Assembly: GCF_003018255.1 (NCBI RefSeq)
Contig: NZ_CP027440.1
DNA from: Escherichia coli
GTDB lineage: Bacteria > Pseudomonadota > Gammaproteobacteria > Enterobacterales > Enterobacteriaceae
Reading direction: 5' to 3' (one strand)
Length of the DNA stretch: 64,000 nucleotides
Numbering within the stretch: position 1 is the first letter of the stretch; every line of letters starts with the position of its first letter. Made by a program: the position numbers. Below are positions 22,817 through 25,800 of the stretch, in pieces.

Positions 22817-25800
22817 TAGTCCTTTATATTGAGTGTATCGCCAACGCGCCTTCGGGCGCGTTTTTTGTTGACAGCGTGAAAACAGTACGGGTACTGTACT
22901 AAAGTCACTTAAGGAAACAAACATGAAACACACACCGTTTTTCTTCGCATTCTTTTTTACCTTCCCCTGAATGGGAGGCGTTTCGTCGTGTGAAACAGAA
23001 TGCGAAGACGAACAATAAGGCCTCCCAAATCGGGGGGCCTTTTTTATTGATAACAAAAAGGCAACACTATGACATCGGAAAACCCGTTACTGGCGCTGCG
23101 AGAGAAAATCAGCGCGCTGGATGAAAAATTATTAGCATTACTGGCAGAGCGACGCGAACTGGCCGTCGAGGTGGGAAAAGCCAAACTGCTCTCGCATCGC
23201 CCGGTACGTGATATTGATCGTGAACGCGATTTGCTGGAAAGATTAATTACGCTCGGTAAAGCGCACCATCTGGACGCCCATTACATTACTCGCCTGTTCC
23301 AGCTCATCATTGAAGATTCCGTATTAACTCAGCAGGCTTTGCTCCAGCAACATCTCAATAAAATTAATCCGCACTCAGCACGCATCGCTTTTCTCGGCCC
23401 CAAAGGTTCTTATTCCCATCTTGCGGCGCGCCAGTATGCTGCCCGTCACTTTGAGCAATTCATTGAAAGTGGCTGCGCCAAATTTGCCGATATTTTTAAT
23501 CAGGTGGAAACCGGCCAGGCCGACTATGCCGTCGTACCGATTGAAAATACCAGCTCCGGTGCCATAAATGACGTTTACGATCTGCTGCAACATACCAGTT
23601 TGTCGATTGTTGGCGAGATGACGTTAACTATCGACCATTGTTTGTTGGTCTCCGGCACTACTGATTTATCCACCATCAATACGGTCTACAGCCATCCGCA
23701 GCCATTCCAGCAATGCAGCAAATTCCTTAATCGTTATCCGCAATGGAAGATTGAATATACCGAAAGTACGTCTGCGGCAATGGAAAAGGTTGCACAGGCA
23801 AAATCACCGCATGTTGCTGCGTTGGGAAGCGAAGCTGGCGGCACTTTGTACGGTTTGCAGGTACTGGAGCGTATTGAAGCGAATCAGCGACAAAACTTCA
23901 CCCGATTTGTGGTGTTGGCACGTAAAGCCATTAACGTGTCTGACCAGGTTCCAGCGAAAACGACGTTGTTAATGGCGACCGGGCAACAAGCTGGTGCGCT
24001 GGTTGAAGCGTTGCTGGTACTGCGCAACCACAATCTGATTATGACCCGTCTGGAGTCACGCCCGATTCACGGTAATCCATGGGAAGAGATGTTTTATCTG
24101 GATATTCAGGCCAATCTTGAATCAGCGGAAATGCAAAAAGCATTGAAAGAGTTAGGGGACATCACCCGTTCGATGAAGGTATTGGGCTGTTACCCAAGTG
24201 AGAACGTAGTGCCTGTTGATCCAACCTGATGAAAAGGTGCCGGATGATGTGAATCACCCGGCACTGGATTATTAGTGACGGTTGTCATTCGCCTGACGCA
24301 ATAACACGCGGCTTTCACTCTGAAAACGCTGTGCGTAATCGCCGAACCAGTGCTCCACCTTGCGGAAACTGTCAATAAACGCCTGCTTATCGCCCTGCTC
24401 CAGCAACTCAATCGCCTCGCCGAAACGCTTATAGTAACGTTTGATTAACGCCAGATTACGCTCTGACGACATAATAATGTCGGCATACAGTTGCGGATCC
24501 TGGGCAAACAGTCGCCCAACCATCGCCAGCTCAAGGCGGTAAATCGGCGAAGAAAGCGCCAGAAGTTGCTCAAGCTGAACATTTTCTTCTGCCAGGTGCA
24601 GCCCATAAGCAAAAGTAGCAAAGTGGCGCAGTGCCTGAATAAACGCCATATTCTGATCGTGCTCGACAGCGCTAATACGATGCAGCCGAGCGCCCCAGAC
24701 CTGAATTTGCTCCAGAAACCATTGGTATGCTTCCGGCTTACGTCCATCACACCAGACCACAACTTGTTTTGCCAGGCTACCGCTGTCCGGGCCGAACATC
24801 GGGTGTAACCCCAGCACCGGACCATCATGCGCCGCCAGCATGGCCTGTAATGGTCCATTTTTCACCGATGCCAGATCGACCAGAATACAATCTTTCGGTA
24901 AAGGCGGTAATTTGCCAATAACTTGTTCAGTAACGTGGATGGGCACACTAACAATCACCATTCCGGCATCGGCAACTATCTCAGCCGCTCGATCCCAGTC
25001 ATGTTGCTCCAGAATCCGCACCTGATAACCCGATAGTGTCAGCATCTTCTCGAACAGGCGTCCCATCTGACCGCCACCGCCGACGATAACCACCGGGCGC
25101 AGTGACGGACAAAGCGTTTTAAATCCTTTGTCGTTTTCACTGGAGTAAGATTCACGCATCACCCGACGCAAAACATCCTCAATCAGATCTGGCGGTACAC
25201 CCAGAGCTTCCGCCTCTGCACGACGCGAGGCCAACATAGATGCCTCGCGCTCCGGAACATAAATAGGCAGTCCAAAGCGGCTTTTCACCTCGCCCACTTC
25301 AGCAACCAGTTCCAGACGCTTCGCTAATAAATTCAGCAGCGCTTTATCGACTTCATCAATTTGATCGCGTAATGCGGTCAATTCAGCAACCATAATAAAC
25401 CTCTTAAGCCACGCGAGCCGTCAGCTGCCCGTTCAGATCCTGATGAATTTCACGCAGCAAGGCATCGGTCATTTCCCAGCTAATGCAGGCATCGGTTACG
25501 GATACACCGTATTTCATTTCACTGCGCGGTTGCTCGGAAGACTGATTGCCCTCGTGGATATTACTTTCGATCATCAGACCAATAATTGAGCGATTGCCAT
25601 CTTTGATTTGAGCAACCACGGATTCTGCCACCGCAGGCTGACGGCGATAATCTTTATTGGAATTACCGTGGCTGCAATCTACCATCAGAGACGGGCGCAG
25701 TCCCGCCTGTTCCATCTCTTTTTCACATTGCGCAACATCCGCAGGGCTATAGTTCGGCGCTTTACCACCGCGCAGGATCACATGCCCGTCCGGATTCCCC

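What the first reader, a model, noticed from the sequence alone, without database searches (positions are those of the whole stretch)
22923..22970. pheL leader peptide reads MKHTPFFFAFFFTFP (Thr at codon 4)
The Phe-codon run that drives attenuation is intact, but codon 4 is ACA (Thr) where I recall ATA (Ile) in the K-12 leader. If real, it is a neutral strain polymorphism in a regulatory peptide; it is also a useful strain marker.
Basis: partly seen in the sequence, partly recalled or inferred. Interest (0 to 1): 0.12.

Follow-up and report, generated by a model that had tools for sequence, protein, structure and literature searches.

The report
Common Thr allele of pheL leader
The phenylalanine-operon leader peptide in this E. 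coli window does read Thr where K-12 reads Ile at codon 4, but Thr is the common, probably ancestral, already-annotated form, so the finding is ordinary.

Summary
Window 22923-22970 (+) encodes MKHTPFFFAFFFTFP*, and the 256 bp around it differ from K-12 MG1655 at one base only: 22933, C versus T, giving codon 4 ACA/Thr versus ATA/Ile. The element is the standard pheL-pheA attenuator. It matches Rfam Phe_leader at full length (132 bits; threshold 55). The seven Phe codons, the pause hairpin, the antiterminator, the terminator and the raiA-pheL-pheA-tyrA gene order are all intact.

Allele-specific probes find Thr in 3,993 of 5,426 complete E. coli genomes and Ile in 1,392. RefSeq already lists the Thr peptide as WP_001386991.1. 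E. albertii, Citrobacter amalonaticus and Pseudenterobacter timonensis also encode MKHTP, using other Thr codons, and ATA appears in no outgroup. K-12 therefore carries the derived minority allele.

The SNP lies 4 nt upstream of the first paired base, and both alleles give the same predicted fold. Residues 2-5 vary freely across 120 Enterobacterales species. The change is most likely neutral.

As a marker, Thr only says "not the K-12-type local haplotype"; the Ile allele appears to travel with one haplotype. The finding is already known and of low interest.

The parts
22478..22819 (+). raiA, the upstream neighbour. Its own terminator-like hairpin is at 22843-22862.
   Evidence: Clean 113-aa ORF. 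Annotated as raiA at the same position in K-12 and in the nearest genome. Terminator scan.
22869..22874 (+). TTGACA hexamer, a candidate -35 element of the pheL-pheA promoter (inference only).
   Evidence: Read directly from the sequence. The strict two-hexamer scan found no complete sigma-70 site, so the -10 element and the transcription start are not established here.
22912..22915 (+). AGGA, a Shine-Dalgarno-like motif 7 nt before the pheL ATG.
   Evidence: Read directly from the sequence. Its function is inferred.
22923..22970 (+). pheL leader-peptide ORF, MKHTPFFFAFFFTFP*. Seven Phe codons lie at 22938-22946, 22950-22958 and 22962-22964. The ORF ends TTC CCC TGA.
   Evidence: RefSeq annotates the identical sequence as pheL, WP_001386991.1. 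The UUC_CCC_UGA ending defines the enterobacterial pheL group in PMC3082878.
22933..22933 (+). The polymorphic base. C gives codon 4 ACA/Thr (this window); T gives ATA/Ile (K-12).
   Evidence: the only difference in 256 bp. C in 3,993 genomes and T in 1,392 of 5,426. E. albertii has C.
22937..23013 (+). Long 1:2 (pause) hairpin. The 5' strand, 22937-22966, overlaps the Phe codons; the 3' strand is 22973-23013.
   Evidence: MFE fold of 22900-23050: -51.7 kcal/mol, z = -5.4. It agrees with the Rfam consensus structure, in which pairing starts at 22937.
22972..23027 (+). Antiterminator (2:3). UGGGAGGC at 22972-22979 pairs with GCCUCCCA at 23020-23027.
   Evidence: Fold of 22968-23031, with segment 1 removed and segment 4 absent: -23.3 kcal/mol, z = -4.35.
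23017..23045 (+). Attenuator terminator (3:4). A 10-bp stem at 23017-23041 runs into a six-T run at 23040-23045.
   Evidence: Terminator scan, MFE fold, and the 3' hairpin of the Rfam model.
23069..24229 (+). pheA (chorismate mutase/prephenate dehydratase), the regulated gene.
   Evidence: Clean 386-aa ORF. Annotated as pheA in all genomes examined.

Best explanation
This is the ordinary E. coli pheL-pheA transcription attenuator, carrying the common allele of a two-state single-base polymorphism at leader codon 4 (ACA/Thr versus ATA/Ile). The mechanism is taken from established knowledge of this system and is not tested here. RNA polymerase pauses after the 1:2 hairpin, and a ribosome translating pheL releases it. 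When Phe-tRNA is scarce the ribosome stalls on the seven Phe codons inside segment 1. Segment 2 then pairs with segment 3, the terminator cannot form, and pheA is transcribed. When Phe is plentiful the ribosome reaches the stop codon, the 3:4 terminator forms, and transcription ends before pheA. Codon 4 lies upstream of all paired segments and of the Phe codons, so the Thr/Ile difference is most likely selectively neutral. Thr is the ancestral and majority state. A single C-to-T transition produced the Ile form on what appears to be one local haplotype, the one K-12 carries.
For: Identity of the element: a full-length Rfam Phe_leader hit at 132.2 bits, RefSeq pheL annotation, and raiA-pheL-pheA-tyrA gene order. 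Anatomy: the 1:2 hairpin and 3:4 terminator appear in the MFE fold, the terminator scan finds 3:4, and the 2:3 antiterminator forms when segment 1 is masked. One SNP against K-12. Frequencies: ACA in 3,993 and ATA in 1,392 of 5,426 complete genomes. Polarity: E. albertii ACT, C. amalonaticus ACC and P. timonensis ACG all encode MKHTP, and no outgroup among 120 species has ATA. Those three loci are genuine Phe leaders at 115-130 bits. Neutrality: the SNP sits in the 15 unpaired 5' model positions, where the model scores C positively. The MFE structure and energy are identical for both alleles, and ensemble energies differ by 0.12 kcal/mol. There are 69 distinct peptides differing in residues 2-5 across 120 species, with K, V, L, T, I, F, R, D and Q all seen at position 4. 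PMC3082878 likewise states that most pheL codons other than the Phe codons are variable. Haplotype: six of seven sampled Ile strains share an identical 2,472-bp haplotype. The K-12-type pheA 5' haplotype is in 1,369 genomes against 1,392 with Ile.
Against: Neutrality is inferred, not measured. Codon 4 lies inside the ribosome's initiation footprint and next to Pro codon 5, which has a 2-fold effect on the incidental +1 frameshift (PMC3082878). ATA is the rarest Ile codon here (5.4% of Ile codons) and ACA the rarest Thr codon (13.3%), so a small kinetic effect is not excluded. The conservation of FFFAFFFTFP was imposed by the search pattern and is not evidence. The counts come from complete RefSeq genomes, which over-represent laboratory K-12 derivatives: about 13 of the 40 sampled Ile hits are evidently laboratory strains.
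Confidence: 0.9

Rival explanations
1. The codon-4 allele tunes attenuation. AUA is read by the scarce tRNA-Ile(CAU, lysidine) and ACA by a different minor tRNA. The two alleles would then differ in how quickly the leading ribosome clears the start and catches the paused polymerase. A ribosome slowed at codon 4 would cover the first bases of segment 1, which starts 4 nt downstream, and could shift basal readthrough into pheA.
For: ATA is 5.4% of Ile codons and ACA 13.3% of Thr codons in 11 genes of the window. The SNP is 4 nt upstream of the first paired base, 22937. Neighbouring codon 5 affects nascent-peptide-dependent frameshifting (PMC3082878).
Against: Position 4 carries nearly any residue and codon across 120 species, which argues against a specific requirement. 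Both alleles persist at high frequency in E. coli. No structural change is predicted. No direct measurement exists.
Confidence: 0.07
2. The C at 22933 is a sequencing or assembly error in this window.
For: None, beyond its being a single-base difference from the K-12 reference.
Against: The exact 33-mer carrying C occurs once in each of 3,993 independent complete genomes. The nearest genome, JNE112863, is identical across 2,472 bp. RefSeq has a dedicated accession for the Thr peptide.
Confidence: 0.005
3. The allele is a useful lineage or strain marker, meaning it tracks clonal ancestry.
For: It is cleanly two-state, with 5,385 of 5,425 genomes carrying one allele or the other. The Ile allele appears tightly linked to one local haplotype.
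Against: Thr is found in O157:H7, B7A, O91 RM7190, NC101, SK1144 and others, so it discriminates very little. The Ile haplotype is identical in K-12, C122, NCTC86, BR1220, SLK172 and Nissle 1917. NC101 carries Thr and differs from K-12 at 36 sites. By my recollection NC101 and Nissle are both phylogroup B2 and K-12 is A; this was not tested here. Strain 88-3493 is a mosaic. The pattern fits a recombining segment, not clonal descent.
Confidence: 0.1

Closest known systems
E. coli K-12 pheL / pheA attenuator (RefSeq WP_010723158.1; Rfam RF01859 Phe_leader)
   Same: Identical over 255 of 256 bp (22820-23075). The candidate -35 hexamer, the Shine-Dalgarno-like motif, all seven Phe codons, the UUC_CCC_UGA ending, all stems, the terminator and the spacing to pheA are the same. 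The predicted structure and energy are the same.
   Different: One base, 22933, C rather than T, giving Thr rather than Ile at residue 4.
RefSeq WP_001386991.1, 'pheA operon leader peptide PheL' (for example O157:H7, B7A, NC101, SK1144, JNE112863)
   Same: Identical peptide and identical pheL DNA. This is the window's allele, present in 3,993 complete genomes.
   Different: Nothing within pheL. Flanking pheA and tyrA haplotypes differ between strains, by 31-63 sites in 2,472 bp.
Escherichia albertii pheL (L008 6300-6347)
   Same: The same peptide, MKHTPFFFAFFFTFP, and a full-length Phe_leader match at 114.8 bits.
   Different: Synonymous differences (CAT, ACT and TTC at codons 3, 4 and 6) and a diverged sequence after the stop codon. 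The 2.5-kb region differs at 216 sites.
Enterobacterial pheL group ending UUC_CCC_UGA (Gurvich et al. 2011, PMC3082878)
   Same: The window ends TTC CCC TGA and keeps the Pro codon 10 codons upstream (codon 5, CCG). It therefore has the features that paper links to about 15% incidental +1 frameshifting.
   Different: The paper does not examine codon 4. Frameshifting was not tested here.

Membership tests
Phe_leader (Rfam RF01859) / pheL-pheA attenuator | Covariance-model score at or above the family's gathering threshold, at full length | tested here: met
   132.2 bits against 55, model positions 1-125 of 125, window 22922-23047 (+) (repeated on the whole window).
Phe_leader (Rfam RF01859) / pheL-pheA attenuator | Short ORF with a run of Phe codons directly upstream of pheA | tested here: met
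   A 15-codon ORF with 7 Phe codons at 22923-22970. pheA starts at 23069.
Phe_leader (Rfam RF01859) / pheL-pheA attenuator | Mutually exclusive pause (1:2), antiterminator (2:3) and terminator (3:4) structures, with a U-run before the structural gene | tested here: met
   1:2 and 3:4 appear in the MFE fold. The terminator at 23017-23041 with its T run is found by the scan. The 2:3 pairing of 22972-22979 with 23020-23027 forms when segment 1 is masked. These are predictions, not probing data.
Phe_leader (Rfam RF01859) / pheL-pheA attenuator | Conserved genomic context (raiA-pheL-pheA, with divergent tyrA-aroF) | tested here: met
   The gene order matches K-12 and the nearest genome.
Phe_leader (Rfam RF01859) / pheL-pheA attenuator | Phe-tRNA-dependent readthrough of the terminator in vivo | not testable with these tools
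   Needs reporter or transcript assays. Inferred from 255/256 bp identity to the experimentally studied K-12 leader.
Enterobacterial pheL subgroup ending UUC_CCC_UGA (PMC3082878) | ORF terminates with UUC_CCC_UGA | tested here: met
   22962-22970 reads TTC CCC TGA.

The most novel reading that the evidence does not exclude
K-12 is the strain in which pheA attenuation was worked out, and it carries the derived minority allele with a rare AUA codon at leader position 4. If that codon measurably slows the leading ribosome, most natural E. coli (Thr/ACA) would have a slightly different attenuation set-point from the textbook strain, and K-12's pheA expression would depend weakly on AUA-decoding capacity (ileX/ileY, TilS).
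Probability: 0.05. Interest if true: 0.25.

Novelty: already known. Interest (0 to 1): 0.05.

Why it matters
It matters very little. The result corrects a reference bias: K-12's MKHIP leader is the minority form, and MKHTP is the usual E. coli sequence, so annotation or variant pipelines that flag Thr4 as a variant are flagging the ancestral state. It also gives a small, clean example of a K-12-type haplotype segment shared by strains that otherwise differ. No new biology follows unless the rare-codon idea is tested and holds.

Tried and rejected
1. The strict sigma-70 scan of 22780-23100 found no promoter. The TTGACA at 22869-22874 is visible by eye, but the promoter is not established here.
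2. The literature search returned Gurvich et al. 2011. It surveys pheL genes but does not mention codon 4, Ile/Thr or E. coli polymorphism, and a search of its text for the peptide strings found nothing.
E. fergusonii, E. marmotae and E. ruysiae were not recovered, and the scan cannot be repeated.
4. Protein-family and protein-database searches were not attempted. The 15-residue peptide is below the 20-30 residue minimum of those tools.
5. The antisense ORFs across the site (22397-23056 and 22426-22908, minus strand) were considered and rejected as genes. They are mechanical ORFs opposite raiA and pheL, and no RefSeq genome examined annotates them.
6. Sequencing error was considered and rejected.
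7. Whether the Ile allele in strain 88-3493 reflects recombination or a recurrent mutation could not be resolved. There are no informative sites between 22693 and 23137 other than the SNP itself and one site private to O157.

Full report
**Observation.** Window 22923-22970 on the + strand reads ATG AAA CAC ACA CCG TTT TTC TTC GCA TTC TTT TTT ACC TTC CCC TGA and translates to MKHTPFFFAFFFTFP*. Codon 4 is ACA (22932-22934).

**What the element is.** Rfam's Phe_leader model (RF01859) matches 22922-23047 at 132.2 bits against a gathering score of 55, over its full length (again). The ORF lies between raiA (22478-22819) and pheA (23069-24229), with tyrA and aroF divergent downstream. This is the same order as in K-12 and in the nearest complete genome.

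- The 151-nt leader folds into a long hairpin (22937-23013) whose 5' strand overlaps the Phe codons.
- That hairpin is followed by a 10-bp terminator stem (23017-23041) running into a T run. The fold has an MFE of -51.7 kcal/mol and z = -5.4.
- With segment 1 removed, as under a stalled ribosome, and segment 4 not yet made, UGGGAGGC (22972-22979) pairs with GCCUCCCA (23020-23027). This is the antiterminator: -23.3 kcal/mol, z = -4.35.
- The ORF ends TTC CCC TGA, the signature of the enterobacterial pheL group described by Gurvich et al. (PMC3082878).

Every sequence feature that defines the family and can be checked here is met. Phe-dependent readthrough itself cannot be tested with these tools. 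It is inferred from near-identity to the K-12 leader, on which the attenuation model rests (established knowledge).

**Comparison with K-12.** Over 256 bp (22820-23075) the window and MG1655 differ at one position, 22933: C in the window and T in K-12. This makes codon 4 ACA/Thr versus ATA/Ile.

**Frequency.** I used 33-base probes with the SNP in the centre. Megablast needs an exact 28-base word, and every such word in a 33-mer covers the central base, so a genome can only match the probe for its own allele.

| Probe | Complete E. coli genomes matched (of 5,426) |
|---|---|
| ACA (Thr) | 3,993 |
| ATA (Ile) | 1,392 |
| Neither probe, locus present | 40 |
| Locus absent | 1 |

RefSeq gives the two peptides separate accessions and slightly different product names. 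The Thr form is WP_001386991.1, "pheA operon leader peptide PheL". The Ile form is WP_010723158.1, "phe operon leader peptide". About a third of the sampled Ile hits are obvious laboratory K-12 derivatives, so the natural frequency of Ile is probably lower than 26%.

- E. albertii encodes MKHTP with ACT, Citrobacter amalonaticus with ACC, and Pseudenterobacter timonensis with ACG.
- Enterobacter, Lelliottia and other Citrobacter species also have Thr at position 4.
- ATA occurs in no outgroup.
- The three MKHTP outgroup loci are full-length Phe_leader matches at 115-130 bits.

Thr is therefore most likely ancestral in Escherichia, and Ile arose by a single C-to-T transition. The caveat is that the other Escherichia species were not recovered.

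**Is the change likely to matter?**

- The SNP is 4 nt upstream of the first paired base.
- It falls in the 15 unpaired 5' positions of the Rfam model, where the consensus base is only weakly conserved and C scores positively.
- Both alleles give the same MFE structure and energy, and their ensemble energies differ by 0.12 kcal/mol.
- Among the 120 species there are 69 distinct peptides, nearly all differing in residues 2-5. Position 4 is K, V, L, T, I, F, R, D, Q and others.
- The constancy of FFFAFFFTFP in that set was imposed by my search pattern and is not evidence.
- PMC3082878 independently notes that most pheL codons outside the Phe codons vary.

Neutrality is the best reading, but it is an inference. 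A residual possibility is a kinetic effect of codon choice. In 11 genes of this window ATA is 5.4% of Ile codons and ACA is 13.3% of Thr codons. Codon 4 also lies within the initiation footprint and next to Pro codon 5, which that paper shows has a 2-fold effect on an incidental +1 frameshift. I give this about 5-7%.

**Value as a marker.** I compared a 2,472-bp raiA-to-tyrA segment from 13 E. coli genomes, with E. albertii as outgroup.

- The window is identical to JNE112863, its nearest genome (99.9% identity over 22 kb).
- Six of seven Ile strains (K-12 W3110, C122, SLK172, NCTC86, BR1220, Nissle 1917) share one identical haplotype.
- NC101, which carries Thr, differs from that haplotype at 36 sites. 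By my recollection NC101 is phylogroup B2, like Nissle; this was not tested here.
- The seventh Ile strain, 88-3493, equals K-12 up to 23136 and then equals the O157:H7 haplotype. This is either a recombination junction or a recurrent mutation, and there are too few informative sites to decide.
- A probe for the K-12-type alleles at 23137 and 23149 in pheA matches 1,369 genomes, close to the 1,392 with Ile. That is consistent with tight linkage, although the two sets could not be intersected.

The Ile allele therefore marks a local, apparently recombining haplotype. The window's Thr allele marks only the absence of that haplotype. The leader itself is well conserved: 22820-23068 has just five variable sites among the 13 strains.

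**Verdict.** The polymorphism is real and probably neutral, but the window carries the common, ancestral and already-annotated form, and it is a weak strain marker. Novelty: already known. Interest: low.

Noticed in passing
window 20767-22477 (IS4 transposase remnants about 20870-22217, +): The bamD-raiA gap is about 1.7 kb here against 270 bp in K-12, because an IS4 element is inserted. The transposase reading frame is split into two ORFs (20870-21193 and 21147-22217), and the nearest genome, JNE112863, annotates it as frameshifted. NCTC86 and BR1220 also have IS4 at this intergenic site, in opposite orientations, so this looks like a recurrent insertion site just upstream of raiA and pheL.
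   Followed up: partly
window 49049-49124 (-): ARAGORN calls this tRNA Met, but RefSeq annotates it as tRNA-Ile; it is the CAU-anticodon type that reads AUA. It differs from two other E. coli copies at 3-4 positions: U6, U11, and CC instead of TT at positions 43-44. By my reading of the cloverleaf, U6 and U11 replace Watson-Crick pairs with G-U, while C43 turns a G-U pair into G-C. Only 3 of 5,426 genomes are 99% or more identical over the surrounding 301 bp. It decodes the codon that K-12 uses, and this window lacks, at pheL codon 4; this is probably coincidence.
   Followed up: partly
L136 (E. coli Nissle 1917 'EcN_Sk') 1659-4130, against L130 (K-12 W3110): Nissle 1917 has a raiA-pheL-pheA-tyrA' segment identical to K-12 at all 2,472 positions, whereas NC101 differs from K-12 at 36 sites in the same segment. 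This suggests a recombinational import of a K-12-type segment. The extent of the tract was not mapped.
   Followed up: partly
L129 (O91 str. RM7190) 2007-2054; corresponds to window 22960 and 22972: This is a third pheL peptide, MKHTPFFFAFFFIFP (codon 13 ACC to ATC, RefSeq WP_001700969.1), together with a T-to-A change just after the stop codon. Unlike the codon-4 SNP, both changes fall inside the paired segments of the attenuator. MIN14 (L004) also has the base after the stop changed, and its leader is 1 nt shorter.
   Followed up: no
L132 (strain 88-3493), corresponding to window 22478-24949: This is a mosaic haplotype. It is identical to K-12 through raiA and the leader, including the Ile allele, and then identical to the O157:H7 haplotype from 23137 to 23823. 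The apparent junction lies between 23009 and 23137.
   Followed up: partly
window 40805-41167 (+) and 18037-18175 (-): A tmRNA gene (ssrA, tag peptide ANDENYALAA) lies at 40805-41167, with only about 8 kb between it and the tRNA-Ile gene; the content of that interval was not examined. An RyfD-family sRNA match (125 bits) lies at 18037-18175, immediately upstream of clpB, whose start is at 18056 on the minus strand. An rRNA operon occupies 10024-15039 on the minus strand.
   Followed up: no
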